In this document: in pieces, positions 476 to 63,716 of the stretch
Numbering within the stretch: the stretch's first letter is position 1
Layout: every line of letters begins with the position of its first letter
Source: a virus
Taxonomy: Duplodnaviria; Heunggongvirae; Uroviricota; Caudoviricetes
DNA: 64,000 nt
IMG/VR virus record: IMGVR_UViG_3300014489_000001
Location: 1-64,000 of that record
Strand: one strand, 5' to 3'
Notes under the pieces: generated by a model
Database searches by the model: none
What the model was told of the DNA's origin: nothing
The model's input: the letters and a program-made list of their open reading frames with translations, nothing else
Made by a program: the position numbers and the translations under genes

Positions 476-1228
476 TTACCAGTATTTCTCTCTCAGGTCC
501 AAGAGCCAATTGTTCAGTAACTGCTTGTTGCCGTGTTCAGGAATCAATGACATATCCAAACAGAAACCAACTGCTTGAATTTTCTCTTCCATGATTTTCT
601 GGATGTCGCAGGCGGCGAACTCTTCGCACCTAATCTTCATCAGGAAGTCTCGCTCTTCGCCCTCTTTCCAAACGACAGGCTCACCACCCATTGCAATCCG
701 TTTAGCGTCTTCACTCAGACGCACGATATGGTAAGCCCATTTCTCGTTGTACTTACCGGTCGCTGTGTTGAGACGTTGACCGTTGATCAGTCGTTTCATT
801 TGGCCAGTCATGAAGCCGAGGTATTGCTTCACAACATCCCGGCTCAGAAACTCACGACGCACGAGTCTCAACGTATACCATTCAGGCATCGAGCGGCACA
901 ATCGATCCGTGAACAGCATCTCGATAATACCAGGATTACCCTTCAACAGCAGGTCGCAGAACTTGCCGACTTCATGGAAGCTGTGATCGGGACGTTCTAC
1001 CTTGTCCTTCGAGTCTTCGGAATCGTGTTTCCACGTTTCCGGTGGACCAGGCTCTTGAGGTAATCTACACGCAAGTAGGCCACGAGTCGGAATGATGTAG
1101 ACGCCGGAGAAATCGGTGTCGCTGGTTATCTTCTCACAATTATGCGAGCGGCTGCCCCAGACCTTGGAGAACAAGACCTTACCGGGCGGCTTGAATCGAG
1201 CAAGGAAATCAGCAAGAACGTCCATCAC
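476..1228 (-). CDS. polymerase-beta superfamily nucleotidyltransferase (predicted NTase, PF10127-like)
   Basis: GSRSHNCEKITSDTDFSGVYI matches the GS-x(9-13)-DxD NTase signature; 250 aa. Confidence 0.5.
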   Translation of the reverse strand: MMDVLADFLARFKPPGKVLFSKVWGSRSHNCEKITSDTDFSGVYIIPTRGLLACRLPQEPGPPETWKHDSEDSKDKVERPDHSFHEVGKFCDLLLKGNPGIIEMLFTDRLCRSMPEWYTLRLVRREFLSRDVVKQYLGFMTGQMKRLINGQRLNTATGKYNEKWAYHIVRLSEDAKRIAMGGEPVVWKEGEERDFLMKIRCEEFAACDIQKIMEEKIQAVGFCLDMSLIPEHGNKQLLNNWLLDLREKYW

Positions 1229-12323: not shown

Positions 12324-12974
12324 TCATAGGACTGCATCCTCCGCATGAAGCATTGCTTTACCTTTGTCCACCGTGACATACGTTCCTGGTTTCTCTACCC
12401 AACAACCAGTGTTGAAGTAGCTATGATTATGGAACTTGATGTGCGTTGGATAGTGAGTATGTCCGCAGATTACTGTGTTATACTCAAGACTCAATGCACC
12501 CTTGGCTACCTTGTCGATACACTTGATGAACTTCTTTATGATTCGCTTGGCTTTCTTTGCCAGCTTGTGGTCTGGATCAAGCCGTTGCAAACCGCCGTAG
12601 ATGAAGTCACCAACGTACTCGATAAGTGGAAACTTGCCAAGGAAATCGTCCCACTTATGGCCGTGAGTAATATGGAAAGTATTGCCATCGTCTATGAACG
12701 TCATGTTCTCTACAAACGGTACACCAAGTACCATGCTGGCTTTCTCGGCTGATTCTTCATGGTTGCCGGCAATCAGAGTCTTATTTGACCAATCGCGAAT
12801 TGCATTCAACACACGCCAGTGACTCTTCTTGAACCTCTTGAAATTGTAGTCATCAATGAGGTCACCAGCCACGATTAACTCAGTTGCCGGGTCAATAGAC
12901 TCAAGGAATCGGAGGAACAGTTTCGCTTCGCAGGCTTCCGACCCCAGGTGTAAATCCGATACGATGAGTTTCAT
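12324..12974 (-). CDS. calcineurin-like metallophosphoesterase (LpxH/YfcE-like)
   Basis: MKLIVSDLHLG, GDLID, GNHE, GHTH motifs. Confidence 0.7.
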   Translation of the reverse strand: MKLIVSDLHLGSEACEAKLFLRFLESIDPATELIVAGDLIDDYNFKRFKKSHWRVLNAIRDWSNKTLIAGNHEESAEKASMVLGVPFVENMTFIDDGNTFHITHGHKWDDFLGKFPLIEYVGDFIYGGLQRLDPDHKLAKKAKRIIKKFIKCIDKVAKGALSLEYNTVICGHTHYPTHIKFHNHSYFNTGCWVEKPGTYVTVDKGKAMLHAEDAVL

Positions 12975-15987: not shown

Positions 15988-16245
15988 TTAGTAAGGTGTT
16001 TCCCATGGTTCAAGCACCAATACTGAACAATCAGGGTGCAACACTTGTTCCATCTCGGTGTCAACAGAATCGCGATCCTTAGCGAAACAACAAGAAATTT
16101 CACGCCAACCCGTCTTCTCAAAACGCATCCAAATGTGGAATGTCTTGAGTCGCGGTGACTCTATGACTCCGCGAATCAAGAATACAATGACAGTAATGGT
16201 GGCTATGATAGCCGACATTACCAACCACACGATTATGAGGATCAT
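15988..16245 (-). CDS. small membrane protein
   Basis: N-terminal TM segment MILIIVWLVMSAIIATITVIVFLI. Confidence 0.4.
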   Translation of the reverse strand: MILIIVWLVMSAIIATITVIVFLIRGVIESPRLKTFHIWMRFEKTGWREISCCFAKDRDSVDTEMEQVLHPDCSVLVLEPWETPY

Positions 16246-17435
16246 GCTTTCCTCCAGTACCGGGCTTCTTTCGGAATCCCGGCATCAGTCAGTTCTCGGT
16301 AGCGGAACGTCACTTGACTACCGCGAGGGAACTTTTCGTTTGTGATCCATGATGGAACTTCTTTTTCAGGGTTCGCTGTTGCCCAATCCTTGGCCGCAAA
16401 AGCCGTCTGGTCAACTTGATAATTGCCAAATAACTCACGTTCTTCTTCCTTGAATCCGCTAAGCTCAAGACGATGGCCGTTGTACGTCGTAATCAAGGCA
16501 CCCATCATGCCAAGTAACTTGCTGCCCTTGTCAGTCTCACGGCCAGTCGTGTAGCCAATCACCGTGGCTTCGGCGTCTTGGAACTTCTTGACCTTGAGCA
16601 GATTATAGGATCGCTTAGGTTCCCACATCGACGTTGGCTTCCGAAGGATTAACCCTTCGCCGCCATCGTTGGTGACATTGGTCAGATACGTGTTCAAGTC
16701 GTCCAACGCAGTTTGCGTTGCAAACGGCAACCGAATCTGGCCTAGCAGTTTCAGATTCTTGGTCTCGACAAGATACTTCTTGAGAAAGTTATTCGTGCTC
16801 TCGAAGCAATCCATGAAGACTTCGCGGACCTTTGTTTCTTTCTTCCACCACGGATAACAACCACGGAGGTAGACTTTGTAGGTCTGGACCCGAACATCGC
16901 CATCCATGAACAACAAACACGGTGGCGGCGAATCGAAGACCTGGTAGATTACACCATCCCACTCATGGCTGGGATTCAAGTGTTTAACGATGCCTGTCAT
17001 TGTCTGAAACGAGTTGCGGCCGCACCAAAGCTCGCCGTCCAAACAAAAGTCTGGCAGAGCATCCAAGAACCAGTCGGGGGCATGGAGGATGTTACCATAC
17101 CTCGTCCACAGACCGGTCGCAATCGGTGTCTCAACATACCGGGCATCCTTCTCGGTATTAGCATACGGGACTTCTGACGCAGGAACCCCGCGACTTCGAC
17201 CACCATCCCACCACGCACGCATCCCGTCGAGCTTTTCACTGACAAACCAACCCGCAATGGTTTGACGTTGCTGCTCATACACATGAGCAAGTTGGACATA
17301 ATCACGTTTCAAGCTGTCACGGCTCGCCATATTAGATTCCCCTAACCAAGGCAAAGGAACGGATGTTCGATTTGTGAATCCAGCCATGCAGGAAAAGCAT
17401 GACATAGCTTTTATTGCGGTCTTTGAACTTGTCAA
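16242..17435 (-). CDS. ATP-dependent DNA ligase
   Basis: adenylation motif SEKLDGMR (KxDG), EGLILRKP (motif IV), LLKVKK (motif V). Confidence 0.75.
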   Translation of the reverse strand: MTSSKTAIKAMSCFSCMAGFTNRTSVPLPWLGESNMASRDSLKRDYVQLAHVYEQQRQTIAGWFVSEKLDGMRAWWDGGRSRGVPASEVPYANTEKDARYVETPIATGLWTRYGNILHAPDWFLDALPDFCLDGELWCGRNSFQTMTGIVKHLNPSHEWDGVIYQVFDSPPPCLLFMDGDVRVQTYKVYLRGCYPWWKKETKVREVFMDCFESTNNFLKKYLVETKNLKLLGQIRLPFATQTALDDLNTYLTNVTNDGGEGLILRKPTSMWEPKRSYNLLKVKKFQDAEATVIGYTTGRETDKGSKLLGMMGALITTYNGHRLELSGFKEEERELFGNYQVDQTAFAAKDWATANPEKEVPSWITNEKFPRGSQVTFRYRELTDAGIPKEARYWRKA

Positions 17436-21357: not shown

Positions 21358-21628
21358 CCCTGTGTAGACGAATCAGTTTCCTGATTCTTGCCAACAAGAT
21401 CATCATCTTGTCTGGGTTGTACTTCATGGTGATAAGGTCTTCATCGACCTCGACTATGTTGCCGGAAGCAATCCTCTCACCACCTTTGACCACGTAATAT
21501 TTTGGGCCTACGAATTCCATGGTTGCACCTTCCTGCAACAATGGCATAGGATCGAAGACACGATACATAGTCAGTCTCCCGTCTTTGAAGTGCCCAGAAT
21601 CGTCGCCAGCGAAGATGCCGTGAATCAT
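21242..21628 (-). CDS. hypothetical protein (start trimmed to MIHGIFAGDD with GGAGGAAAA SD)
   Basis: track ORF 21242..21832 overlaps the DHH gene; internal ATG at 21628 gives a 4-nt overlap. Confidence 0.4.
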   Translation of the reverse strand: MIHGIFAGDDSGHFKDGRLTMYRVFDPMPLLQEGATMEFVGPKYYVVKGGERIASGNIVEVDEDLITMKYNPDKMMILLARIRKLIRLHRDGHPGVLPEIFQWLPEGYNEHCPVPATTQGESGLPGGI

Positions 21629-22488
21629 TTTTCCTCCACGTTTGGAGAATCTCCATGTCGTGGTCCAGTTATTGCGTCCAAGAATTCTTGGTGCCACGGA
21701 ACAGAGAACGAAGCAGCATGTGCATGCCCTCCTCCTCCATATAATTGTGCAATTGCAGAGACATCGATTCCCGTATCGTTGCTTGAACGAAGAGAATACA
21801 CGAATCGTTTTATACGATCTTGGTTGAACCATACTATGGCAAATGGACGACCAAGCCCTAACTCATGACCGATTTCACTTGCGAGAACTGTTGAGTTGAC
21901 ACTCATCACCTTGTGCCCATGGAATTCGATTTCGCGGGCCTGGGACACAGCCTGGCGAATGATCTTTTCTTGGTAGCGGATAATCGGTCGGCCTTCCTTG
22001 ACACACGCATCACGACCCATCAGCACAAACTTCTCGCAGTTGGCCAGTGAGAAAGCGTAGCTTTGGATGCAGGCGTCAACTTCTTTGGATTCGGGGAGTT
22101 CCCATTTCCAAAGATCACGATCTCGGATGTAGGGGAGAATCCACAACATCTCGCGATCAGGTTTGAGATACTTCCAAGCGAGTGTCGCGCCAGATTCATC
22201 GTTATCGTCGATATACGAAAACGGATAATCAGGCACGAAGCCTTCAAGTTGTTCGCGAGTGGATTTGTGGTGGTCGATGACCAGAAGGGATTTCGGATGT
22301 ACGCTTTTGAGGATCGCAATGTCTGGACAGTAGTCCACACAAACGATTGAGTCCTCATCCGAAATTTGAGGGAGTTGTTCCTGATACCGGACAGGTATCA
22401 GGTCGGCACCTTTGAAATATGATTCTGCGATGTACGCTGCGAAGATTCCGTCGGCGCAATTTGCGTGGAAGAGCAACTTAGTTGACAT
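21625..22488 (-). CDS. DHH-family phosphoesterase (NrnA/RecJ-like) with DHHA1 domain
   Basis: HANCADG (motif I), VIDHH (motif III), GGGGHAHA (DHHA1 GGGH). Confidence 0.7.
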   Translation of the reverse strand: MSTKLLFHANCADGIFAAYIAESYFKGADLIPVRYQEQLPQISDEDSIVCVDYCPDIAILKSVHPKSLLVIDHHKSTREQLEGFVPDYPFSYIDDNDESGATLAWKYLKPDREMLWILPYIRDRDLWKWELPESKEVDACIQSYAFSLANCEKFVLMGRDACVKEGRPIIRYQEKIIRQAVSQAREIEFHGHKVMSVNSTVLASEIGHELGLGRPFAIVWFNQDRIKRFVYSLRSSNDTGIDVSAIAQLYGGGGHAHAASFSVPWHQEFLDAITGPRHGDSPNVEEK

Positions 22489-23367: not shown

Positions 23368-24792
23368 TCATTGGGACTCGCTGGTGCGAATGAAGTCGAT
23401 GATCGCTTCGGACCACCCGCTGATATGGGTGAAGTTGCCGTAGCCGATTCCATTCTTGTCAGCACTGATGTTGATCAGGTAGTTCTCGTCACCGAATGCT
23501 TCCGCGGCGTTGGGATCGCACTTTGCATTCATGCCGGTTGCACAATCCTGCTCATCCGTAATGACGATGACGCGAGCCGCTTCGCCGTGTTCCTGTTCGC
23601 TGACGTAATCCATGCACTGAGTCAAGAAGATGCCACCGTGGCCGATTTCAGATTCCATCTTCATCTGGGCGAAAATCTCACCCAGAGCGAAACCACGACG
23701 CGCCGGAACCTGCTTCGTGGCATGTTTTCGGCGTTCATCAGACCCAGCAGTCGCATAGATGACCGGGTCTTCGGCAATCTCACGAATGAGAATCGCCAAA
23801 GCACCAGCAGCGTCCAATCTGGTCAGGTCACTCTTCTGCGAAATCTGCTTGCCGTGCATGGAACCAGACACGTCTATGATTAGGACGGTCTTACCAGGCA
23901 GTTTTTCGACCTTGGCAACGCATCGAAGCATCATATCTTCGATCATCGGTTCCCATCGCGGGCAAGCACGAGCCGCCGAGATGAATCGAAAAGGCAGAAC
24001 GCGGTCGAGAGGAACGTGCTTCGCGTACTCACGAACCAGGCCGGCGTCCACGCCAGACTGTTCCATGTTGCGAAGATTCCGAATGAAGGCTAAAGCGTAG
24101 AGCTTCTCTTCACGCATCAACCGCTCGAACGTCTCTTTCTTGTCAGCACCCGCGGAAAGTTCCGTTTCCCAAGTGTCGGGCGTCTGGAGCGTGCCGGCGA
24201 CCAATTTGCCGTACAACGATTCCGGATGGCGAAGAAGAATTTTCTCGTGGCCGTCCTTGTATTTCCGAGTGTATTTCTTGGAACGGCCGTTGCCCTTCGG
24301 TCCCGGATTCGCGTGACACAGGAACAACACGTCTTTGAGCTTGATCGCGTTGTTCTGGTTGTCGTACTTCGCGAGACTGTACTCGTTGAAGTTTCCGAAA
24401 GCCGCAGCGAGACCCTTCTTGACCTGGGCCGCAATCGGACACTTGCCGTCTTTCCAGTAGATCGAGAGGAACTAGGCCAACTCGTCGGGCCGCTGAATGA
24501 TTTCAGGTAGGAGTTTGCTCAGTTGTCCCTTGTGAACCGGCAGGCGAGCCATCTCGCGTGCAATCAGAAGCGGAACGTGCCGGAGTTTCTGGACAGTACG
24601 AGCTTGAATTGCGATTGCCGAGACCCGATCTGCTGGGACTTTGGCAATCAGAGAGCCGATGCGGGCGGCGATCTCTTCACCGGATTCGTAGAAATTGTCT
24701 TCCCAAAGCATACACGCCATTACGGAACGCCGAAGCTGTTCCTCAGTGTTGACGCTCACCGCACGAGCGCCGCCATGTGTTTTCACCGGCAT
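23368..24792 (-). pseudogene. rsr: Ro60/TROVE-domain protein with C-terminal vWA domain (Rsr-like), interrupted by an in-frame TAG at 24469-24471; pseudogene or read-through
   Basis: N-terminal segment contains the TROVE hallmark MLWEDNFYE. After TAG the frame continues FLSIYWKDGKCPIAAQVKKGLAAAFGNFNEYSLAKYDNQNNAIKLKDVLFLCHANPGP into ORF 23368..24330, whose C-terminal half has a vWA-type MIDAS (LIIDVSGSM). Confidence 0.7.
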
Positions 24793-25051
24793 TTTCGGTT
24801 CCTCCAGATTAAGGGATATACCACAAAAGTTGCAGGGATTAAACGATTCAGGGAGACATCATCAAAAGAAGTACCTGAATCTTACGCCACTGCAAGACAG
24901 ATTCGGGGAATAATTGACTACGGTTATCCCAGGTGTCAGGGTTTACAGCCCTGATCCTTGGGACTTCACTAATCAGAGAAGTATCCGTTGTCTACGCCAC
25001 CGAAAGACAGATGACGGGAATTGACGATTTCAGTTTTGGCCCTCTCGGGCG

Positions 25052-25122
25052 GTCTTTTGCTCTACCTTGGTGAGCTACAGCCAACTTGCGTTGCTGTTGG
25101 GAGTCGAACCCAATACCTAAAG
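25052..25122 (-). ncRNA. circularly permuted tRNA-like module (3' half - linker - 5' half)
   Basis: minus strand: TCTTT-AGGTA-TTGGG-TTCGACT-CCCAA-CAGCAAC-gcaag-TTGGCTG-TA-GCTC-ACCAAGGTA-GAGC-A-AAAGA; anticodon-stem strands AAAGA/TCTTT pair across the permutation. Confidence 0.5.
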
Positions 25123-25317
25123 AAGTAACTGTAATCTTCGCCACGTCAAGACTAACGACTCCAAAGGATTTACGACCTGTTTTATAGCGTCGTGAAAAAA
25201 GCACCGGGGATTAATCGGCACAGTTATGTCCATTTAAGGACACTCTAAGCAAGAAGTAACTGTGATCCTATCGCCACCGGATTGCAGATGCAGGGATTTG
25301 TCGCTACAGGCTTTCTG

Positions 25318-25388
25318 ACCGCTGCTCTTACACTGAGCTATGATGTCCGATCAGGACACCAGTTGGAATCAAACCAACGACCCGCGGT
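25318..25388 (-). ncRNA. circularly permuted tRNA-like module
   Basis: minus strand: ACCGC-GGGTC-GTTGG-TTTGATT-CCAAC-TGGTGTC-ctgatcg-GACATCA-TA-GCTC-AGTGTAA-GAGC-A-GCGGT; acceptor 7 bp (one G.U), anticodon stem GCGGT/ACCGC. Confidence 0.55.
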
Positions 25389-26180
25389 TTTCTTTGAAGT
25401 AACTGTAACTACGCCACTGCAAGAATCAGACCAACAACTACGCCAGCAGCAAAAGCTGCTATGATTACCAGTAGTTCAAACAGCAGAAAACAACCACAAC
25501 TTTTGTTGATCTCTTTTTCAGTCGGAATCAGATGACCAAACATTGAGCTATCCATCGTGTCTCCTGGATGTGGGGATTATTCACTACGGGGTAGCAGTGT
25601 TGAAACTGCAACAGCTTTCGCTGTTCTAACCGAAGTAACCGTAAGTAACGCCACCACAAGATTAAAAGGCTCATGTTATCTGTTATTCACCTTCGACCTT
25701 CGCATCATGCTACTTCCGTGGCAGACCACGCCATGAGCCTGCACCGTTGCCCATCCTCGGTGTACGGTATCGGGGATTATGCGATTCAGTGCTTTTTAGA
25801 AGGAAGTAACTGAATCTAACGCCACCGATGATTTAAGAGGGTTTTGTTTACGCAGCTTATCCCTTCAAGTGAGGGTTGCCATAGATGGGTCCCCGCTGCG
25901 TGGGCTAGGCAGTTCATGTGGCCGGGTTTCCCCGGCCCCGCGAACAATCTAAGACCCTAACCATCATTAGAAAGATTCAAAAGTCCGGGAATAATTTAGC
26001 TTCGGTTTTTCGTGTTGATGGTAGAAGTAACCGAAACAATCGCCACGGAACTAGCGTAGGTGGTGAGTTGCTTTAGGCCAGGTTGTTACTCACAATCGCT
26101 GTCTGGCCACCTTTGGATTCGTGAGGGCGGCTACACGCCGCCCTCGGCTTAATCAACAACCTCGTGCCTCATGCTTCAGC

Positions 26181-26254
26181 GCGAGTGTCCTGGACCGGTC
26201 TAGACGATACAATCCTTGTGGGATTGCAATGGGATTTGAACCCATGTTTCTCGC
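26181..26254 (-). ncRNA. circularly permuted tRNA-like module
   Basis: minus strand: GCGAG-AAAC-ATGGG-TTCAAAT-CCCAT-TGCAATC-ccacaag-GATTGTA-TC-GTC-tagaccggtccag-GAC-A-CTCGC; acceptor 7 bp (one G.U), anticodon stem CTCGC/GCGAG; flanks form an imperfect bulged helix. Confidence 0.5.
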
Positions 26255-26364
26255 AGCTTTGAGCCAGGGATTTTGCGATCACGGCGGGCACTTTTAACAG
26301 AAGTAGCCGTAATCTGTCGCCACTGGTTTGCGATTCGATTCTTGCAAGTCTCTCTGCCTAGTCC

Positions 26365-26393
26365 ATTATACCATAAAAAAGGTATCCTGTCAA
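26365..26393 (-). promoter_or_regulatory. consensus sigma-70 promoter with extended -10 (TTGACA-17-TGgTATAAT) reading into the ncRNA array and rsr
   Basis: rc reads TTGACAggataccttttttatgGTATAATgg; shares the 16-nt block tccattataccataa with the promoter at 1489-1517. Confidence 0.6.
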
Positions 26394-28957: not shown

Positions 28958-29029
28958 TCGGCCTGAAAGGACTTGAACCTTCAACCTCCTGAGTATCAGT
29001 CAGGCGCTCTGCCATTGAGCTACAGGCCA
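28958..29029 (-). tRNA. tRNA-Ile (anticodon GAT)
   Basis: rc TGGCCTG-TA-GCTCAATGGCAGAGC-G-CCTGA-CTGATAC-TCAGG-AGGTT-GAAGG-TTCAAGT-CCTTT-CAGGCCG-A. Confidence 0.8.
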
Positions 29030-29043
29030 GTTGAGTCGAACAT

Positions 29044-29115
29044 TCGCTCTGCCGGGATTCGAACCCGGAACCGTCGAGATATAAGCCCGACACTCTGCCA
29101 TTGAGCTACAGAGCA
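29044..29115 (-). tRNA. tRNA with anticodon TAT (Ile, AUA decoder)
   Basis: rc TGCTCTG-TA-GCTC-AATGGCA-GAGT-G-TCGGG-CTTATAT-CTCGA-CGGTT-CCGGG-TTCGAAT-CCCGG-CAGAGCG-A. Confidence 0.7.
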
Positions 29116-29116
29116 G

Positions 29117-29189
29117 TGAACCCGGCGGGAATCGAACCCGCAACATTCTGATTAAGAGTCAGACGCTCTACCAATTGAGCTACGGATTC
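29117..29189 (-). tRNA. tRNA-Lys (anticodon CTT)
   Basis: rc GAATCCG-TA-GCTCAATTGGTAGAGC-G-TCTGA-CTCTTAA-TCAGA-ATGTT-GCGGG-TTCGATT-CCCGC-CGGGTTC-A. Confidence 0.8.
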
Positions 29190-29308
29190 AAATTTTGGTT
29201 TGAAGATTGGTTCGATACCTTCCGCACAGCCACGTAGTATATAGACTGGTGGCCAATCCGGTTTAATTGTTGTCAGTCTAACAGAAGTCGGAAACATGAA
29301 TCACCAAA

Positions 29309-29380
29309 TGGGACCGGAGGGAATCGAACCCTCATACACCGGATTAAAAGTCCGAGACTCTACCATTGAGTTACAGTCCC
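29309..29380 (-). tRNA. tRNA-Lys (anticodon TTT)
   Basis: rc GGGACTG-TA-ACTC-AATGGTA-GAGT-C-TCGGA-CTTTTAA-TCCGG-TGTAT-GAGGG-TTCGATT-CCCTC-CGGTCCC-A. Confidence 0.8.
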
Positions 29381-29446
29381 GGAAGGATTCGAACCTTCAA
29401 CCCTCGGATTCAGAATCCGATGCTCTACCGTTGAGCTACAGGACAT
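29381..29446 (-). tRNA. tRNA-Gln (anticodon CTG)
   Basis: rc ..TGTCCTG-TA-GCTCAACGGTAGAGC-A-TCGGA-TTCTGAA-TCCGA-GGGTT-GAAGG-TTCGAAT-CCTTC-CGGGAC..; 3' acceptor abuts or overlaps the next tRNA. Confidence 0.7.
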
Positions 29447-29519
29447 CAGCGCCGGTTGGATTCGAACCAACGACCAGCGGATTCAAAGTCCGCCGCTCTT
29501 CCATCTGAGCTACAGCGCA
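29447..29519 (-). tRNA. tRNA-Gln (anticodon TTG)
   Basis: rc TGCGCTG-TA-GCTCAGATGGAAGAGC-G-GCGGA-CTTTGAA-TCCGC-TGGTC-GTTGG-TTCGAAT-CCAAC-CGGCGCT-G. Confidence 0.75.
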
Positions 29520-29631
29520 ATAAAAGAGTTGTGATTAGTGGTGGTAGCCGCAGTTGCCTGGTGCGTCCTGACTAATCACATACAGCCGTTCTCAAACGTA
29601 TTGTCTCATCGTTATTTACCGGCTTACTCAG

Positions 29632-29705
29632 CAGTACCAACGGGACTTGAACCCGTAACCTTCCGGTTGACAACCGGATGCTCTAACCAATTGAGCTATG
29701 GTACT
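29632..29705 (-). tRNA. tRNA-Asp (anticodon GTC)
   Basis: rc AGTACCA-TA-GCTCAATTGGTTAGAGC-A-TCCGG-TTGTCAA-CCGGA-AGGTT-ACGGG-TTCAAGT-CCCGT-TGGTACT-G. Confidence 0.8.
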
Positions 29706-29891: not shown

Positions 29892-30914
29892 TTAAACACG
29901 AACGAGTACCTTGGTGCCGCGGGGAAGAATCCGATTCACAGATCGCGACTGCACGAACACGTCGTAATTGCCGTGGTTGCCCGGATCGACCTGGGCGTAT
30001 TGGCCTGCCGGAAGACCAATCAATCCACGAGCTTCCGGACCACCGTAGACGGACTTCTTGCCCTTTTCCTTGACGAGGACTTCCTTGGTGGGTTGCACCT
30101 TCTCCGGCTTCATCAGCTGGTAGAAAGCATTGCCGCGCACATACTCTTCGCCAGTCTTGGTTTCAACGAAAGGCCGAATGATGTCCTCGGTGATGACCTT
30201 GAACTCCCGGAAGGACTTGCTCAAGTCCGTAAGCAATCGCTTAGCGTTGCTCGGAACCTTGCTCGTGACCTTCTGGAAGAAGTTCTTCGTCGCTCGCTGA
30301 CCAGACGTGCGGCCAGCGTAGAAGTTGCCCATGGCGTCTTGAGTATCAGAGAACGTCTCGCGGGTGCCCTCGTCGGTTTGTTCCCATTCCTGGACGTTAT
30401 CCTCAGGAATCCCGAACTTACAGCAGAAGGGAGTTTTCTGACCCTTCGGCACCTGGAAGGTAAAGGTCCAGTTACCGCGTTGCTGATGCTGACGGAACAG
30501 CGATTGCAGTTGCTGCTGGTTGTACCGTACCGAATGGTTCTCCTGGCCGTCAGTGATGACGAGCAGGACAAAACTGTCGTCGAAAGTGACGCCAGTTTTA
30601 ACTTCATCAAGTTGTTCCGTGGCGAAGCCGACGGCGTCTAACAGAGCCGTGTAGCCCTCGGTGCGATAATCGTAATCATTCAGCGGCTCGAGGAATTCCG
30701 GTCGAGCGTTGATGAATCGCGGAGCGTGGACGTGGGTGCTGAAAGTCAAGAAAGAAACGTAGTTTTGTTGACCATCCGGCGGATTCCGGAACTTCTCGGT
30801 CAGGGCGTTGTATGCCTGAACCGTTGCCCGTTTGATCTGGGTCATGGAATCCGATGCATCAAGGACGACGCAAATGAAGTTGCGAAGAATCTTCTTTTTG
30901 TTAAGCCGAGCCAT
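29892..30914 (-). CDS. von Willebrand factor A (vWA) domain protein
   Basis: MIDAS motif VVLDASDSM near the N-terminus; 340 aa. Confidence 0.6.
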   Translation of the reverse strand: MARLNKKKILRNFICVVLDASDSMTQIKRATVQAYNALTEKFRNPPDGQQNYVSFLTFSTHVHAPRFINARPEFLEPLNDYDYRTEGYTALLDAVGFATEQLDEVKTGVTFDDSFVLLVITDGQENHSVRYNQQQLQSLFRQHQQRGNWTFTFQVPKGQKTPFCCKFGIPEDNVQEWEQTDEGTRETFSDTQDAMGNFYAGRTSGQRATKNFFQKVTSKVPSNAKRLLTDLSKSFREFKVITEDIIRPFVETKTGEEYVRGNAFYQLMKPEKVQPTKEVLVKEKGKKSVYGGPEARGLIGLPAGQYAQVDPGNHGNYDVFVQSRSVNRILPRGTKVLVRV

Positions 30915-37164: not shown

Positions 37165-37701
37165 TTAAGATTTCCTTTTTTGTACCGTCCGTTTGCTTCT
37201 CGGTTGTCGGCGGTATTTTTCATCAATGCTCCTGATTACGTCGTCACCAATTGCGACACACTGATTTGTGGCTTCACACCAGGAAGTTTTGAAATCTAAC
37301 AATGGACAACAAATTGCCAGTTTCTGTATATCCATTTTGAATGCAAAGTACGTATTCTTATGCCATACTCCGTTGGCATAGACCCACAAGCCAGGTTGAT
37401 ATGGTACACGACAGAATGGCCAGCCAAATGCTAAAGCAACCGGTCGTTCGTCCTTGAATGACAACTCTTCACAAAGTTTGACTTCACGAGCATTCGGCGT
37501 AATACCTTTGACTTCAATCCAGATTTGTAATCTTGGCATGAAGAAGTCAGGAAGGTAGTTTGCTGTAGGTAGTTTGAAGAACCGTGACTCGTAGGTCCAC
37601 GGTTCGTCAAACATATTGAAAAGTGTGGTGTACTTTGCTTCTAATTGTGAGCGAAATCGTACACCACAGTATTTCGTCGGTTTAGCACGAATGCGTTTCA
37701 C
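37165..37701 (-). CDS. putative PD-(D/E)xK nuclease
   Basis: YLPDFFMPRLQIWIEVKG fits the PD...(D/E)xK core. Confidence 0.45.
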   Translation of the reverse strand: MKRIRAKPTKYCGVRFRSQLEAKYTTLFNMFDEPWTYESRFFKLPTANYLPDFFMPRLQIWIEVKGITPNAREVKLCEELSFKDERPVALAFGWPFCRVPYQPGLWVYANGVWHKNTYFAFKMDIQKLAICCPLLDFKTSWCEATNQCVAIGDDVIRSIDEKYRRQPRSKRTVQKRKS

Positions 37702-38055
37702 TTACATTGCCTTGAAATAAAGCTGAGTAACGTATTCCGTTTCAGTGAAGCCAGGGTATGTTTCCTTCATAACCTGTAGCAATCCTTCGTAAGTACGGCA
37801 AATTGGATCGTGTTCAAAGCACAGTAACTCTTTGTTCAAATCGATGAATCGAGTGTACTGCACTGTGAGAATTTTGTAATCCTTGTCAACAAGAGTGAAA
37901 GACATACTTTCACCAGATTCAAACCACGCCTTGATCCATTTGGACCCACGACGCACGGTAAGGTTCACATCATCCCTGAACACAGGATTGTTGAACAGTA
38001 AAGGAATCAACATCAGTCTTTCTCCAGATAAGTAGCTCCGACACACTTGAAACAC
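37702..38055 (-). CDS. hypothetical protein
   Basis: 117-aa ORF. Confidence 0.4.
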   Translation of the reverse strand: MFQVCRSYLSGERLMLIPLLFNNPVFRDDVNLTVRRGSKWIKAWFESGESMSFTLVDKDYKILTVQYTRFIDLNKELLCFEHDPICRTYEGLLQVMKETYPGFTETEYVTQLYFKAM

Positions 38056-39242
38056 ACACGACCTACGTGCATGTCTCGACGCTCAACCATCGGCTTGACA
38101 ACACAACCTTCTCGATAATGATTCGCACTTCGCCACTTGCTGGGTCCATCCGAGTGACCCACGACGCACGAAAACGAGTAGGGAACCGCTTTGTCGAGAA
38201 TCGGTACCCACGGTAGTTGATCAGCAAGATTCCTCGCAGCAATAGGGTCAGCAAATTCGCCATCAAGCATGATGTCGAATGCAGCGAACATTAACGGTTC
38301 ATTATCGGTCGCACCGTAGCGAAGATTCTGAACCTGACCAAACACTTCGCCGTATACTACGGCACCTGGATGGTTGATTAACCAAAACTCAAGACATGGT
38401 GTTGCACTGAGAGCATTCCACCAAAGATTACGTTGCTTCGGTTTGTTGTGCAACCTGTCGAAAATCTCTTGGACACGTGTCTCATCGACTTCCCTGAACT
38501 CAGGAGGTTGACTTGGAACAAGTCTTACAAATTGTGCTGGTGGCATTTCAGGCGTAGCTGTTGCGTCCTTCTTGAAGACGTGCTGGCGCAGGAACTCAAG
38601 AGTGATGTGATCGTAAGAAGGATATTCTTTCTTCCACTCATTACGCGACCCACAATGAATCTGCCCATCACTATAGACATAACGAGCCGAGCAACCATGA
38701 ATCTTTTCCGTAATCCACACCGGCTCACCCTCGGTGAACAAGTTATGATACTTACGGAATGCATCCACGTCGTACTTGACCGTGAATACAGTCGGGCCTT
38801 TGGCAGTTTCACCACCAGTAATCAGGTTGTCACTCTGGACACCTGGAAGCGGTGGCTCGTAATGCGTGACGCCTAGTTGCGTAGCAACGTCGTCACCGAG
38901 ATTACTGCCTTCCGGAGCAGGGACCATGAGGCCGTAGCTAACGACTTTGCGAAGCTTGATCGCTTTAACTCGGTGTGTTCCGTCGGCTTTTGGCTTAAGG
39001 AAGCTGAATTCTGGTCGACTGGTATCGACAACGGAATCCGGTGGGAGGTAAGCGCCCTGTGCCACGGCTTGCCAGTCTGCGGTTCGGACGACACAGGTGT
39101 AACCACCAAAGACGTTGACGATGGATAGTGAATCAGCATTAGGGTGTTTCTCCAACACGATTGATACGACTTCAACCTGATGCGTAGAATTACTCATTAC
39201 CACTCCCAAGCCATTAAAGGTGAAACGATTTCCGCTTTCCAC
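38013..39242 (-). CDS. Rnl2-type ATP-dependent RNA ligase fused to an N-terminal tRNA-binding (Myf/Trbp111-like OB) domain
   Basis: N-terminus VEVVSIVLEKHPNADSLSIVNVFGG (tRNA_bind HPNADxL); ligase motif I TEKIHGCSARY (KxHG) and motif IV EGCVVKP. Confidence 0.6.
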   Translation of the reverse strand: MESGNRFTFNGLGVVMSNSTHQVEVVSIVLEKHPNADSLSIVNVFGGYTCVVRTADWQAVAQGAYLPPDSVVDTSRPEFSFLKPKADGTHRVKAIKLRKVVSYGLMVPAPEGSNLGDDVATQLGVTHYEPPLPGVQSDNLITGGETAKGPTVFTVKYDVDAFRKYHNLFTEGEPVWITEKIHGCSARYVYSDGQIHCGSRNEWKKEYPSYDHITLEFLRQHVFKKDATATPEMPPAQFVRLVPSQPPEFREVDETRVQEIFDRLHNKPKQRNLWWNALSATPCLEFWLINHPGAVVYGEVFGQVQNLRYGATDNEPLMFAAFDIMLDGEFADPIAARNLADQLPWVPILDKAVPYSFSCVVGHSDGPSKWRSANHYREGCVVKPMVERRDMHVGRVCFKCVGATYLEKD

Positions 39243-39405: not shown

Positions 39406-39753
39406 TTACGACAAGCTCCACACTTGAGGCCAGGCATCACGCACCGGCCTAGAAGTAGCCCTAGAACAATATCTAGGGCTACGTAAACGATTCCAGCGAT
39501 TAAGAGGTACTTTTCCATTACAGTCTCGGCGAACAAGAAGGACACGAGCAACTAACCATATGAACACACTGCGTGCCATCTTTCCTGCGACCAGTGCCAC
39601 CACACTCTTGACACCTTTGATGTAGGCATTCGCTATTGTTGAATATGCCCAATGGTAGTAATCCTTGATACCCTTCCAGGATTTTACGATCAAGCCACAG
39701 CATATGTTTCTTACTGGCTTGCGTAATGTAATCATCCATGGCGTACCTCGCAT
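39406..39753 (-). CDS. small membrane protein
   Basis: hydrophobic segments; 115 aa. Confidence 0.35.
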   Translation of the reverse strand: MRGTPWMITLRKPVRNICCGLIVKSWKGIKDYYHWAYSTIANAYIKGVKSVVALVAGKMARSVFIWLVARVLLVRRDCNGKVPLNRWNRLRSPRYCSRATSRPVRDAWPQVWSLS

Positions 39754-42044
39754 GTAGGACCTTCACAGTAACGTTCGTCGATGCCATCAGAACCACGCAA
39801 CTGCGACCAGTCAATTGGTTTGATGTTCATCAAGCGTTCGTTGTATTCCGTTTCGCTGATTCCTTCTTCCGGCGTCTGGGCGTAAACACCCTTGGCCGTA
39901 TGCGGAAGCATTGCCACAGATTTTGTCATCGGAGCAATAGAACTGAGTACAGGCTCGATATCGTCTTCTTCGTGGTTAGGATCAAACTCAAAGAGTTTGA
40001 CCTCAACGGCAACCTGATTGAAATTGAACGTAGCTTTATACTCGTTGAAACTCGACACCAAAGTCCGCTTGTTCACGAGGATTTCAGATCGTTCTTTCTT
40101 GTTCAGGTATGTGTCCAACGGAGGACACGTCTCTGCCACGAACTTGTCGAAGTTAATCCACAAGTGGTATTTCATGATCCACTTCGGACGGAAGTTGAGC
40201 GTATTGCTCACGGCGTTATCCGACCACTCACGTTGAAGAAGAACCAACATAGCCGCTTGTTCCCACAAGCTAACTTTCTTGAAGTTCTTCTTGAACACTG
40301 GAAACTCGAAAACGTCCGTCTCATTCGGCTCATTGATGTCTACCTCATGCGGGACGTTGGCCCGAAGCAATAGAGGTCGGAGAGGCGATGATCGTGAAAC
40401 CCGTACGCGACGGAGCATAAATTCGAAATTCGGTCGATTAAAACCTGAATTCTCTCCTGGCAGATTCGGTGTAGTACCTCCGGGTTTAATGGTGGTAACT
40501 CGGATAGCCTCTGGAACTCCTGCCTCAGAGTTGCACCACTGATTGATGTATCGTACCCTTTCGTAACCATTACGCAGGTTCCTGATAAGTTTGTGGGTGC
40601 CGATTCCATCTTGCCAACCCGAAACGTTGATAATACCAACGCCGATCCGTCGATTTCGGAGCATGACGGCGTTCGTCTCAAGCCGATGTGTGGGGAGCAA
40701 AGTAACTGTTGAAGCGTATAAGGTTGCATATTCAACCGCTTTGAGCCACGTTGCATCATCACCGCACCGGCAAGGAATCGTTTCAACCAACGTGCAAAGC
40801 TCTTTATTCTCAAGAGGTTGTTCACCGCACGGGTTGAATGCGATTGCTTTATCGAGACGTAATCCCTCCATGGATTTACCAATCCGACCAAAAGGGAGAT
40901 TGACCTTGTTGATATAGCCAGGTTCGCCGTTTAGAATGACTCGCTTGGCAATCTCCCCTAGGCGCTCAAAGTCTTCCGGGTTTTCCAGGAAGACTGAGTT
41001 GTTACTCATGTAACCCCACGCCTCACGGTGTGGGTATTTGGCGTATTGTTTCAGGTCTATGATTTCGTCGATTTCTCCGGCACAAAGTTCTGCACTTCGA
41101 CGAACATTACCCGCAACGACGCAGCAACCAGTACAATTGGCAAGATCAGCTTTGAGAAGAACCGAATCATACCATTCCTCACAGGCATACATTTCAAAGA
41201 GTTCTTCAATCCGTTTGTGGAACTTGATGAGCGGACCAGCACCCGAACACACGCCGCCAAAACCACGAATCAATGCGCCTTCCGGGCGGATATTGTCGTA
41301 GATGAACTTTGGCTTTGGGAGACCAGGTTCACGGTACGCTTGCATCAACACGAGCGTAGAATCAATCCAACCCTCACGAGAATCATCAATGACGTACTCG
41401 TAGGTTCCATGCGGGTTGAAGATTTTGAGATCGTCCTGACGTTCAGGAAGGAATCCCACACCAACGCCGCACATGAGCGCATCCATCATCCAGTGGATGT
41501 CTTTTTCGAACTCTTCTCCGAGAACCGTGAAACCGCAATTCTGCAATGCCATGCTGCCGCGATTGTAGACAAACTCACTACCCATGGCCCATAGACCGCG
41601 ACCCGGAGGAAGCCATTCCATCTTGAACATGCTGACAGCAAAGTGACGAGCGTAATGCTGCCAGAAAGATTCATCCCACGGAATATGGTTCTTGACGTAG
41701 TGATCCTTACGAATCGAGAACGTCCCCTCAACGACACGAAGAATGGTGTCTGGCCACCATTCTTGACACGTTTCAGCTTCTCCCTTAGTGTCTTTGACAC
41801 AGTTCGCACAATACTCTTGTTTGTACGAATTTGACCATTTGATGTTTGGTTGACGACAACCCTTACAGATGTTGCGACTGTAAGTACGGAAGTAAAGAAA
41901 CTCACCGAATCCGTTAAATCCGAAGTTCGGGGTCATACCCCGGATTTCCTCCGTCGTGGATTCTGCCAGCTTGAACCGTTCCTTCACGAACATCATCTTC
42001 TCCCAATAGAGCGTGGGTGATACCTTGTATTTTGAGCAATTCAC
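39732..42044 (-). CDS. ribonucleotide reductase catalytic subunit (class II NrdJ-like; no beta subunit seen in window)
   Basis: active-site NPCGEQPL motif, 770 aa. Confidence 0.65.
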   Translation of the reverse strand: MNCSKYKVSPTLYWEKMMFVKERFKLAESTTEEIRGMTPNFGFNGFGEFLYFRTYSRNICKGCRQPNIKWSNSYKQEYCANCVKDTKGEAETCQEWWPDTILRVVEGTFSIRKDHYVKNHIPWDESFWQHYARHFAVSMFKMEWLPPGRGLWAMGSEFVYNRGSMALQNCGFTVLGEEFEKDIHWMMDALMCGVGVGFLPERQDDLKIFNPHGTYEYVIDDSREGWIDSTLVLMQAYREPGLPKPKFIYDNIRPEGALIRGFGGVCSGAGPLIKFHKRIEELFEMYACEEWYDSVLLKADLANCTGCCVVAGNVRRSAELCAGEIDEIIDLKQYAKYPHREAWGYMSNNSVFLENPEDFERLGEIAKRVILNGEPGYINKVNLPFGRIGKSMEGLRLDKAIAFNPCGEQPLENKELCTLVETIPCRCGDDATWLKAVEYATLYASTVTLLPTHRLETNAVMLRNRRIGVGIINVSGWQDGIGTHKLIRNLRNGYERVRYINQWCNSEAGVPEAIRVTTIKPGGTTPNLPGENSGFNRPNFEFMLRRVRVSRSSPLRPLLLRANVPHEVDINEPNETDVFEFPVFKKNFKKVSLWEQAAMLVLLQREWSDNAVSNTLNFRPKWIMKYHLWINFDKFVAETCPPLDTYLNKKERSEILVNKRTLVSSFNEYKATFNFNQVAVEVKLFEFDPNHEEDDIEPVLSSIAPMTKSVAMLPHTAKGVYAQTPEEGISETEYNERLMNIKPIDWSQLRGSDGIDERYCEGPTCEVRHG

Positions 42045-63642: not shown

Positions 63643-63716
63643 GGTGACTGAACTCAAAAAGGTGCGAGACCAGATTGTGAATCTGGTATAAGCGGGTTCG
63701 ACTCCCGCCAGTCACA
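63643..63716 (+). tRNA. tRNA-His (anticodon GTG) with encoded G-1
   Basis: g-GTGACTG-AA-CTC..GAG-A-CCAGA-TTGTGAA-TCTGG-TATAA-GCGGG-TTCGACT-CCCGC-CAGTCAC-A; short 3-bp D stem. Confidence 0.7.

What the first reader, a model, noticed from the sequence alone, without database searches (positions are those of the whole stretch)
38013..39242. RNA ligase fused to a tRNA-binding OB domain: candidate tRNA/Y-RNA repair enzyme
The N-terminus carries the tRNA_bind signature (LEKHPNADSLSIVNVFGG) known from Trbp111, Arc1p and the MetRS C-terminus. The C-terminal part has Rnl2-type nucleotidyltransferase motifs (EKIHGCSARY, EGCVVKP). A dedicated tRNA-targeting ligase near a tRNA cluster and Ro60/Y-RNA-like array suggests countering host anticodon nucleases (the T4 Rnl1/Pnkp paradigm) or processing and circularising the permuted RNAs. 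No polynucleotide kinase-phosphatase was identified in the window, although HD and DHH phosphoesterases are present.
Basis: partly seen in the sequence, partly recalled or inferred. Interest (0 to 1): 0.6.

Follow-up and report, generated by a model that had tools for sequence, protein, structure and literature searches.

The report
Phage Rnl5-type nick-sealing RNA ligase
This gene encodes an ordinary, apparently active member of the known Rnl5 (DraRnl/NgrRnl) RNA ligase family, whose built-in N-terminal OB domain is a distant cousin of tRNA-binding domains. It is not a newly invented tRNA-targeting fusion, and what it seals inside the phage-infected cell is still unknown.

Summary
The ORF is real, but its true start is Met16, giving 38013–39197 on the minus strand and 394 aa. 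It has a PF21189 OB domain followed by a PF09414 RNA-ligase nucleotidyltransferase domain. Full-length sequence and fold matches point to Naegleria gruberi RNA ligase, the structural prototype of the Rnl5 family. All catalytic motifs I, Ia, III, IV and V are intact, and Lys180 is the predicted AMP acceptor.

More than 1000 homologs share the architecture. The clade-specific novelty is a ~65-residue insertion after motif Ia. No kinase/phosphatase partner was found in the window. The "permuted RNAs" are YrlA-type Y RNAs, which need no ligation. Neighbouring genes mix DNA and nucleotide metabolism with RNA repair.

Verdict: new member of a known kind, modest interest.

The parts
38013..39197 (-). 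Revised gene: Rnl5-family ATP-dependent RNA ligase, 394 aa (the 409-aa ORF extends to 39242; residue numbers below use the 409-aa ORF numbering)
   Evidence: ORF. Met16 start from alignment A1 and the TAATG overlap plus GGAG. Pfam, PHROG and NCBIfam matches. PDB sequence and fold matches to NgrRnl.
38850..39188 (-). N-terminal OB domain (residues ~19-131), PF21189, tRNA_bind-class fold. Contains HPNADSL (res 33-39) and KLRKVVSYGL (res 96-105).
38016..38771 (-). C-terminal nucleotidyltransferase (adenylyltransferase) domain, residues ~158-409. There is no domain after motif V.
   Evidence: PF09414 E 9.5e-19. Foldseek gives NgrRnl E 1.8e-18, then T4 Rnl2 at 8.5e-6. Alignment A1.
38703..38705 (-). 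Lys180 codon: predicted AMP-accepting nucleophile in motif I, T178-E-K180-I-H182-G183
   Evidence: Invariant in A1. Aligns with NgrRnl Lys170. Same T-x-K-x-H-G pattern as DraRnl T163/K165/H167/G168.
38625..38651 (-). Motif Ia region GSRNEWKKE (res 198-206); G198, S199, E202, W203 and K204 are invariant
   Evidence: Position relative to motif I resembles DraRnl S185/K186; this mapping is an inference.
38427..38624 (-). Clade-specific insertion between motifs Ia and III (res ~207-272). It is absent from NgrRnl and from the ~320-aa bacterial-type homologs.
   Evidence: Alignment A1 columns ~256-320. Gap relative to NgrRnl. Helices 215-219 and 254-265 in the model.
38496..38564 (-). Pro-rich segment ATATPEMPPAQFVRLVPSQPPEF (res 227-249). 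About 20 of its residues have no counterpart even in the closest homolog. Predicted disordered.
   Evidence: Alignment A1. pLDDT below 50 for residues 227-247. Coordinates.
38337..38354 (-). Motif III YGEVFG (E299 invariant)
   Evidence: Aligns with NgrRnl QGEIIG, Glu227.
38091..38111 (-). Motif IV EGCVVKP (E378 and G379 invariant)
   Evidence: Aligns with NgrRnl REGLVFK, Glu312.
38037..38054 (-). Motif V CFKCVG (K399 invariant)
   Evidence: Aligns with NgrRnl FKAIS, Lys326.

Best explanation
The gene encodes a functional Rnl5-family (DraRnl/NgrRnl-type) ATP-dependent RNA ligase.

Mechanism, inferred from homology to the characterised enzymes:
1. Lys180 in motif I attacks ATP to form ligase-AMP. 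The N-terminal OB domain closes over the active site and orients the pyrophosphate leaving group.
2. AMP is passed to a 5'-phosphate end.
3. An RNA 3'-OH attacks to seal the break.

The preferred substrate should be a 3'-OH/5'-PO4 nick held in a base-paired context with ribonucleotides on the 3'-OH side. It should not be free single-stranded ends.

The OB domain is an integral catalytic module of the family that shares ancestry with tRNA_bind domains. It is not a recently added tRNA-targeting device.

Biological role (inferred, least certain step): the enzyme is part of the phage's early nucleic-acid-metabolism region. It most likely seals breaks in base-paired regions of tRNAs or other structured RNAs after end trimming or filling by enzymes such as the RlaP nucleotidyltransferase and phosphoesterases encoded in the same window. 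Sealing ribonucleotide-terminated nicks in replicating phage DNA is a close second possibility.
For: Identity and architecture:
- PF21189 plus PF09414; PHROG 968 over the full length; TIGR02306 aligned over 29-408.
- Best PDB sequence match is NgrRnl: E 3e-11 for the single sequence and 5.7e-24 for the profile.
- AF2 model with pLDDT 82 matches NgrRnl over both domains, E 1.8e-18, TM about 0.7.
- Lys180, Glu299, Glu378 and Lys399 are invariant, and motif I T-x-K-x-H-G is as in DraRnl.
- Asp69 is invariant at the position of NgrRnl Asp53, which contacts the second metal.
- More than 1000 homologs were found. All 120 listed carry PF09414, and all but three also carry PF21189.

Expression:
- Start and stop codons overlap with both neighbours. 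There is no minus-strand promoter or terminator match between the RNR gene and the ligase, and composition is native.

Family biochemistry:
- PMC1807946, PMC4408790 and PMC7261155.

RNA-repair lean:
- RlaP (PF10127, E 6e-14) and a calcineurin-type phosphoesterase are in the window.
- No other RNA ligase family was detected among the 51 scanned ORFs, which include all but two overlapping ORFs of 300 aa or more.
- RlaP distribution mirrors RNA ligases in jumbo phages (PMC7824862).
- Neighbours in independent phage lineages: a Thg1-like gene directly 3' of the ligase (L012, L019, L020), a CCA-adding-type enzyme (L016), an RF-1/ArfB-like gene (L010), Rnl1 plus AAA_33 plus TROVE (L004), and a tRNA directly 3' (L003, L006, L011).
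- The DRB0094 family is 140-fold enriched in phages with tRNA-associated theta ribozymes (PMC10879173).
Against: No biochemical data exist for this protein or for any phage Rnl5.

The TIGR02306 equivalog cut-off is not reached (112 against 151 bits), so functional equivalence to DraRnl is not guaranteed.

The ~65-residue insertion between motifs Ia and III, absent from both characterised enzymes, could alter substrate choice.

NgrRnl Lys121, a gamma-phosphate contact, is replaced by an invariant His127.

For the biological role:
- The only in vivo evidence for an Rnl5 enzyme points to DNA repair (PMC5397189).
- In the window's own lineage the conserved neighbours are RNR, PolA and PD-(D/E)XK nucleases.
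- No 5'-kinase was found.
- The neighbour census in distant phages is mixed, with no conserved partner.
- 14 of 24 related loci have no tRNA within 10 kb.
Confidence: 0.6

Rival explanations
1. DNA-side role. The ligase seals nicks in phage DNA whose 3'-OH side ends in ribonucleotides. Such nicks could come from unremoved primer remnants or from ribo-patches laid down when dNTPs are scarce. It would complement the phage's conventional ATP-dependent DNA ligase.
For: DraRnl deletion sensitises D. radiodurans to ionising radiation and delays genome reassembly. The authors propose sealing of 'ribo-patch' nicks (PMC5397189).

Rnl5 enzymes accept a DNA 5'-PO4 strand and a DNA template.

The gene lies directly downstream of the class II RNR and shares a minus-strand block with PolA, with no intervening promoter or terminator match. 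This order is conserved in L001, L003 and L006.

Neighbours in distant phages include UDG x3, ThyA x2, NT5C x2, RNR, UvsW, UvsY and RecA.
Against: The phage already encodes a DNA ligase at 16242-17435.

The same region also carries RNA-related genes (RlaP, TROVE, the Y-RNA array, tRNAs), so position does not discriminate.

The published enrichment with tRNA-ribozyme phages and the Thg1, CCA and Rnl1 adjacency are not explained by a DNA role.
Confidence: 0.28
2. First reader's model. This is a dedicated tRNA-targeting ligase whose OB domain docks onto tRNA or Y RNA. It reseals anticodon-loop breaks made by host anticodon nucleases (the T4 Rnl1/Pnkp paradigm), or it circularises permuted RNAs.
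For: The OB domain is of the tRNA_bind structural class. The window has 9 tRNA genes, including Lys, Gln, Asp and Ile, a TROVE protein and a Y-RNA-like array.
Against: The OB module is a family-wide feature with a demonstrated role in adenylylation, not in substrate targeting. Delta-N enzymes still seal pre-adenylylated nicks.

NgrRnl is feeble on single-stranded RNA whereas T4 Rnl1 is efficient.

There is no PF09511 (Rnl1) similarity and no Pnkp-type kinase in the window.

The ligase is 8.3 kb from the tRNA cluster and 13.7 kb from the TROVE gene.

The 'permuted' RNAs have YrlA topology and are linear by design.
Confidence: 0.1
3. The protein is a decayed or non-catalytic relative that binds nucleic acid but no longer ligates.
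For: The score is below the TIGR02306 cut-off. There is a disordered Pro-rich insert.
Against: All catalytic residues are invariant across 20 homologs spanning 50-77% identity. The fold is confident outside the insert. The gene is tightly packed with overlapping start and stop codons.
Confidence: 0.02

Closest known systems
Rnl5 family: Deinococcus radiodurans DraRnl (DRB0094, TIGR02306) and Naegleria gruberi NgrRnl (PDB 5COT)
   Same: N-terminal OB domain plus C-terminal NTase domain, with nothing after motif V. Motifs I, Ia, III, IV and V are conserved, and the T-x-K-x-H-G motif I matches DraRnl. The full-length fold matches NgrRnl. Phage members of the family have been known since 2007.
   Different: Only ~22% identity to NgrRnl. 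Below the TIGR02306 equivalog cut-off. A ~65-residue insertion sits between motifs Ia and III, ~20 residues of it unique to this protein. His127 replaces NgrRnl Lys121. The OB domain keeps the HPNAD(S/K)L-type motif, which NgrRnl itself lacks (AGAEAI at that position).
tRNA_bind OB domains (PF01588: Trbp111, CsaA, MetRS C-terminal domain, PheRS-beta B2, EMAP II, Arc1p)
   Different: Fails Pfam's tRNA_bind threshold. Pfam places it in a separate family, PF21189. In Rnl5 enzymes the domain is known to contact ATP and the second metal, not tRNA. tRNA binding is untested.
T4 RNA ligase 2 (Rnl2 family)
   Same: The NTase domain lies in the same Pfam family (PF09414). Foldseek E 8.5e-6. Motif I is of the EKIHG type. 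Nick-sealing specificity with an RNA 3'-OH strand is shared by Rnl2 and Rnl5.
   Different: It lacks the Rnl2 C-terminal helical domain and has an N-terminal OB domain instead.
T4 Rnl1 / Pnkp tRNA repair system
   Same: A phage-encoded ATP-dependent RNA ligase, in a genome that also carries tRNA genes and RNA-repair accessory genes such as RlaP.
   Different: No PF09511 similarity, a different accessory domain, and no Pnkp in the window. The expected substrate geometry is different: a duplex nick instead of a loop break.

Membership tests
Rnl5 (DraRnl/NgrRnl) RNA ligases | Domain order: N-terminal OB module, C-terminal NTase domain, no C-terminal accessory domain | tested here: met
Rnl5 (DraRnl/NgrRnl) RNA ligases | Covalent nucleotidyltransferase motifs with the motif I lysine and the motif III, IV and V acidic and basic residues | tested here: met
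   K180, E299, E378 and K399 are invariant in A1. They align with NgrRnl K170, E227, E312 and K326.
Rnl5 (DraRnl/NgrRnl) RNA ligases | Score at or above the curated TIGR02306 equivalog cut-off | tested here: not met
   112 bits against a cut-off of 151.15, although the alignment spans 29-408 of the protein and 10-341 of the model. The shortfall is consistent with the insertion and with divergence. The Pfam domain thresholds are met.
Rnl5 (DraRnl/NgrRnl) RNA ligases | OB-domain residues that engage the ATP gamma-phosphate and second metal (NgrRnl Arg4, Asp53, Lys121) | tested here: inconclusive
   Asp53 aligns with invariant Asp69. Lys121 aligns with invariant His127. Arg4 is not alignable.
Rnl5 (DraRnl/NgrRnl) RNA ligases | ATP- and Mn2+-dependent sealing of 3'-OH/5'-PO4 duplex nicks with an RNA 3'-OH strand | not testable with these tools
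   Needs a biochemical assay. Inferred from PMC4408790 and PMC1807946.
tRNA_bind domain (PF01588) | Pfam gathering score | tested here: not met
   12.9 bits, E 0.12, against a cut-off of 27, on the isolated N-domain.
tRNA_bind domain (PF01588) | Trbp111/EMAP II/PheRS-B2 type OB fold | tested here: met
tRNA_bind domain (PF01588) | Binding of tRNA | not testable with these tools
   No nucleic-acid complex of any Rnl5 enzyme appeared in the papers read here or among the NgrRnl PDB entries listed by the structure searches.
T4 Rnl2 family | C-terminal all-helical domain required for nick sensing | tested here: not met
   There is no sequence after motif V. The Foldseek match to 2HVR is restricted to the NTase part, TM 0.32-0.40.
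T4 Rnl1-type tRNA repair ligase | PF09511 NTase plus the tRNA-specific C-domain, with a Pnkp end-healing partner | tested here: not met
   No PF09511 hit. tblastn with the L004 Rnl1 and AAA_33 proteins finds nothing in the window, and Walker A motifs occur only in helicase/primase-size ORFs. No kinase was found in 51 scanned ORFs.
ATP-dependent DNA ligase / mRNA capping enzyme | PF01068 or capping-enzyme NTase with a C-terminal OB domain | tested here: not met
   No such Pfam hit at E up to 1. DNA ligases appear only at Foldseek E 3.5e-3 or worse, apart from one Aquifex chain labelled 'putative ATP-dependent DNA ligase' at 5.4e-4. A separate bona fide DNA ligase is at 16242-17435.

The most novel reading that the evidence does not exclude
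Phage Rnl5-type ligases bearing the clade-specific insertion might be dedicated ligases for L-shaped RNAs. In this reading the tRNA_bind-class OB domain, which here retains the HPNADxL motif that NgrRnl has lost, together with the insertion docks tRNAs or the tRNA-like module of YrlA-type Y RNAs. The enzyme would work with RlaP, a phosphoesterase and the phage Ro60(TROVE)/VWA/Y-RNA array as a phage-encoded RNA surveillance-and-repair machine. That machine would counter host tRNA-cleaving defences, or complete the maturation of ribozyme-processed phage tRNAs.
Probability: 0.12. Interest if true: 0.65.

Novelty: new member of a known kind. Interest (0 to 1): 0.3.

Why it matters
The physiological substrates of Rnl5 ligases, and of nick-sealing RNA ligases in phages generally, are still unknown. 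The literature calls them 'uncharted', and the only in vivo result points to DNA repair.

This phage lineage places an intact Rnl5 ligase in one genome region with RlaP, a Ro60-like protein, a multi-copy YrlA-like RNA array, tRNAs and a separate DNA ligase. That makes it a reasonable system for asking whether such ligases act on RNA or on ribo-terminated DNA nicks. By itself, though, the gene is an ordinary family member, and the 'tRNA-binding domain fusion' is a known family trait.

Tried and rejected
- Near-identical DNA search of 36-44 kb against phage records found no match, so the window is an undescribed phage.
- Rfam at gathering thresholds returned only tRNAs, with no Y RNA or ribozyme. 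A permissive search gave only sub-threshold YrlA hits and no HDV-like ribozyme in 23-30.2 kb.
- I looked for a conserved operon partner. tblastn of 24 window proteins, plus three proteins taken from L004 (Rnl1, AAA_33, NUDIX), against 25 related loci showed synteny only in the closest relatives.
- A Pfam census of 150 flanking ORFs from 18 distant viral loci gave a mixed bag with no dominant partner. Ten recurrent neighbour ORFs were mostly without Pfam matches.
- Bacterial and megaphage contexts were uninformative.
- A search for Pnkp-like kinases by Walker A motif and by similarity to the L004 AAA_33 protein found none. Further ORF scans found no HD, 2H or kinase domains.
- The Burroughs and Aravind RNA-repair survey could not be retrieved.
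- DNA ligase or capping enzyme, pseudo-enzyme, and 'ligase needed to circularise permuted RNAs' were each considered and rejected, for the reasons given under the rival explanations.
- I did not map motif IIIa firmly. F322/D323 align with NgrRnl, but the spacing differs from DraRnl F281.
Full report

A 409-codon ORF lies at 38013..39242 on the minus strand.

An alignment with 19 homologs of 50-77% identity shows that the first 15 residues have no counterpart. Met16 (MSNSTH...) coincides with the N-termini of the closest relatives. Its ATG (39195-39197) overlaps the TAA stop of the upstream small ORF as TAATG and is preceded by GGAG. The ligase TGA stop in turn overlaps the ATG of the downstream ORF. 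The gene is therefore 38013-39197, 394 aa, and is tightly packed with both neighbours.

No minus-strand promoter-like or terminator-like site lies between the class II ribonucleotide reductase gene (39732-42044) and the ligase. Composition is like the rest of the window.

**2. What is it?**

- Pfam gives PF09414 RNA_ligase (E 9.5e-19) and PF21189 'PHA02142 OB-fold domain' (E 1e-9).
- PHROG 968 'RNA ligase' matches end to end, E 4e-32.
- NCBIfam TIGR02306 'RNA_lig_DRB0094' aligns over residues 29-408. It scores 112 bits, below its equivalog cut-off of 151.
- The only significant PDB sequence relatives are the Naegleria gruberi RNA ligase entries: E 3e-11 with the single sequence and 5.7e-24 with a family profile.
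- An AlphaFold model has mean pLDDT 82. It is low only in the spurious N-terminal extension, the inter-domain linker and residues 227-247.
- That model matches NgrRnl over both domains (Foldseek E 1.8e-18, TM about 0.7 on the target). T4 Rnl2 follows at 8.5e-6, REL1 at 1.4e-4 and Rnl3-type ligases at about 1e-4 to 1e-3. DNA ligases score 3.5e-3 or worse, apart from one Aquifex chain labelled 'putative ATP-dependent DNA ligase' at 5.4e-4.

The protein therefore has the Rnl5 architecture: an N-terminal OB module, a C-terminal nucleotidyltransferase domain, and nothing after motif V.

The catalytic inventory is complete and invariant in the alignment:
- Motif I is T178-E-K180-I-H182-G183. DraRnl has the same pattern at T163, K165, H167 and G168.
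- Motif Ia is G198-S199-R200.
- Motif III is YGE299VFG.
- Motif IV is E378-G-C-V-V-K.
- Motif V is F-K399-C-V.
- These align with NgrRnl Lys170, Glu227, Glu312 and Lys326.

In the OB domain, invariant Asp69 sits at the position of NgrRnl Asp53. NgrRnl Lys121 is replaced by an invariant His127.

**3. The tRNA_bind question.**

Pfam tRNA_bind (PF01588) is not met. On the isolated N-domain it scores 12.9 bits (E 0.12, cut-off 27), over the same residues that match PF21189.

The resemblance is nevertheless not chance.
- A profile of the N-domain alone finds NgrRnl first (4.7e-12). It then finds the MetRS C-terminal domain (E 0.0021), the PheRS-beta B2 region (E 0.0029), another MetRS-C (E 0.0048), and more weakly MetRS and the EMAP II-like domain of TyrRS.

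It is not new, however. The 2007 DraRnl paper already calls the N module a putative homolog of the PheRS B2 OB-fold.

It is also not evidence for tRNA targeting. In both characterised enzymes, deleting the OB module impairs ligase adenylylation and overall nick sealing but leaves sealing of a pre-adenylylated nick intact. [quoted passage not shown]

**4. How common is it, and what is particular here?**

The word-indexed search returned 1008 proteins at E of 0.001 or better. All 120 listed carry PF09414, and all but three also carry PF21189. Many are named 'RNA ligase (TIGR02306 family)' by JGI. In the phage collection, 204 records hold a relative, mostly annotated as RNA ligase. They include Pseudomonas, Aeromonas and Caulobacter phages. 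Phage members of the family were noted in 2007 and 2015.

What distinguishes this clade is an insertion of about 65 residues (207-272) between motifs Ia and III. It is shared by most of the ~370-aa phage-type homologs and absent from NgrRnl and from the ~320-aa bacterial-type homologs. Within it, about 20 residues of a Pro-rich segment (227-249) are unique to this protein and are predicted disordered. The function of the insertion is unknown. It lies in a part of the NTase domain that faces nucleic acid in other ligases; that last point is my inference.

**5. Context in the window.**

All of these genes are on the minus strand unless stated, and together they form one long block:
- RlaP nucleotidyltransferase (476-1228)
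- dUTPase, ThyX, and a calcineurin-type phosphoesterase (12324-12974)
- NT5C, a sigma factor, dCMP deaminase, and an ATP-dependent DNA ligase (16242-17435)
- Band-7, DHH (21625-22488), and a TROVE/Ro60-like protein (23368-24330)
- an ORF-poor RNA array, a 589-aa unknown protein, seven tRNAs (28958-29705), and a VWA protein (29892-30914)
- DUF5662 and a PD-(D/E)XK nuclease, then the ligase itself, followed by the class II RNR, PolA, ParB and an SNF2 helicase

No Rnl1, RtcB or polynucleotide kinase was detected. I did not find an HD protein in the ORFs scanned.

The RNA array (about 24977-26392, minus strand) starts after a consensus TTGACA-17-TATAAT. It holds at least eight units that begin GTGGCG...GTTACTTC. 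One unit folds into a long terminal stem enclosing a T-arm, a GNRA-capped acceptor-like hairpin and a D-arm. Rfam YrlA matches are sub-threshold, at 32.8 and 27.7 bits against a gathering score of 69.

This is the YrlA topology described by Chen et al., including their GNCGAAN0-1G motif, which is GGCGAAG in the copy at 25121-25145. Such RNAs are linear transcripts, so the suggestion that the ligase circularises 'permuted RNAs' is unnecessary.

**6. Context elsewhere.**

The closest relatives (L001, L003, L006; 60-72% ligase identity) keep the order PolA...RNR-ligase-178-aa protein-162-aa protein-sigma-like-PD-(D/E)XK...VWA-tRNAs.

A 49%-identical homolog (L004) sits in a different neighbourhood. 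It has a T4 Rnl1-type ligase, a sigma factor, an AAA_33 kinase-like protein, NUDIX, VWA and TROVE.

In 18 more distant viral loci, the Pfam census of 150 flanking ORFs is heterogeneous:
- RNA-linked families: Thg1 x3, Metallophos x2, NUDIX x2, and one each of a CCA-adding-type PolyA_pol, cREC and RF-1.
- DNA and nucleotide-metabolism families: UDG x3, NT5C x2, ThyA x2, RNR, UvsW and UvsY.

The Thg1 cases are one lineage, in which a Thg1-like gene directly follows the ligase and a UDG follows that. A CCA-type enzyme lies 1 kb downstream in L016, and an RF-1/GGQ protein lies 0.5 kb downstream in L010. A tRNA directly follows the ligase in L003, L006 and L011, but 14 of 24 loci have no tRNA within 10 kb.

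A bacterial homolog is a stand-alone gene next to a HigB toxin. A megaphage homolog sits among RecA, methylase and PIF1 genes.

Published surveys add two points. RlaP distribution mirrors that of RNA ligases in jumbo phages. 'RNA ligase, DRB0094 family' is found in 54.5% of phage genomes carrying tRNA-associated HDV-like theta ribozymes, a 140-fold enrichment. That paper's suggestion that the enzyme aminoacylates tRNA has no support in the ligase biochemistry.

**7. Mechanism and role.**

The chemistry is the classic three-step ligase pathway through Lys180-AMP, with the OB domain assisting step 1. This is shown by homology, not by experiment.

The expected substrate is a 3'-OH/5'-PO4 nick in a base-paired context with RNA on the 3'-OH side.

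For the biological role I lean towards repair of breaks in base-paired parts of tRNAs or other structured RNAs, together with RlaP and phosphoesterases. The reasons are the RlaP co-occurrence, the recurrent tRNA-repair neighbours in independent lineages, and the published enrichment.

The rival is sealing of ribonucleotide-terminated nicks in phage DNA. It is supported by the only in vivo study of an Rnl5 enzyme and by the conserved RNR/PolA neighbourhood. I rate it only somewhat lower.

It is the least supported of the three.

**8. Verdict.**

However, the protein is a regular, probably active member of the known Rnl5 family, which has many phage representatives. Its only structural peculiarity is a clade-specific insertion. 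It is a new member of a known kind. Interest is modest and comes mainly from the unresolved physiological role of this ligase family and from the RNA-biology-rich genome around it.

Noticed in passing
window 24977-26392 (minus strand): The ORF-poor stretch next to the TROVE gene begins with a consensus TTGACA-17-TATAAT promoter-like site (~26392-26364). It contains at least 8 units that start GTGGCG...GTTACTTC, which matches the Y-RNA GNCGAAN0-1G motif. The unit at 25000-25150 folds into a terminal stem plus T-arm, GNRA-capped acceptor-like hairpin and D-arm, which is the YrlA topology. Rfam YrlA hits at 25052-25121 and 25320-25386 are sub-threshold. A multi-copy Y-RNA-like array of this size seems unusual.
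   Followed up: partly
window 23368-24330 (-) and 29892-30914 (-): The TROVE-domain protein (320 aa, matching only the C-terminal part of the TROVE model) and the VWA-domain protein (340 aa) are separate genes about 5.5 kb apart. In cellular Ro60 the two domains are in one polypeptide. VWA and TROVE also co-occur near the ligase in L004, and VWA occurs in L001, L003 and L006.
   Followed up: partly
window 476-1228 (-): RlaP-family (PF10127, E 6e-14) RNA-repair-associated Pol-beta nucleotidyltransferase, 37 kb from the ligase. A calcineurin-type phosphoesterase at 12324-12974 and a DHH/DHHA1 protein at 21625-22488 are possible end-processing enzymes.
   Followed up: partly
window 29521-29630 (-): The 110-nt spacer between tRNA-Asp and tRNA-Gln(UUG) folds unusually stably (-33.5 kcal/mol, z = -3.5; 1 of 200 shuffles folds as well). 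It has no Rfam match. The other spacer (29190-29308) is unremarkable. Neither was tested against the published theta-ribozyme descriptor.
   Followed up: no
window 29374-29445 and 63644-63716: ARAGORN calls tRNA-Gln(CUG) overlapping tRNA-Lys(UUU) by 7 nt, while Rfam matches only model positions 7-64 there (29381-29439), so the acceptor stem is odd or shared. Rfam finds a further tRNA at 63644-63716 (+) that ARAGORN does not call.
   Followed up: no
window 16242-17435 (-): A separate ATP-dependent DNA ligase (PF01068 plus PF14743), so the phage carries both a DNA ligase and the Rnl5 RNA ligase.
   Followed up: no
L012 11048-11860, L019 1955-2770, L020 11047-11865: In one phage lineage a Thg1-like (tRNA-His guanylyltransferase family) gene follows the Rnl5-type ligase within about 60-760 bp (58 bp in L012 and L020, about 760 bp in L019, where another ORF lies between), and a family-4 UDG follows that. 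In L003, L006 and L011 a tRNA gene directly follows the ligase.
   Followed up: partly
window 37165-37701 (-): The 178-aa protein downstream of the ligase is conserved at that position in L001, L002, L003 and L006. It has a PD-(D/E)XK-like pattern (...YLPDF...IWIEVKG) by eye but no Pfam hit. The 104-aa ORF whose start codon overlaps the ligase stop codon (37702-38016) is not conserved in relatives.
   Followed up: no
L026 5630-5926: The bacterial (Bryobacteraceae MAG) short-type homolog is a stand-alone gene divergently adjacent to a HigB-family RNase toxin gene. This may be coincidental.
   Followed up: no
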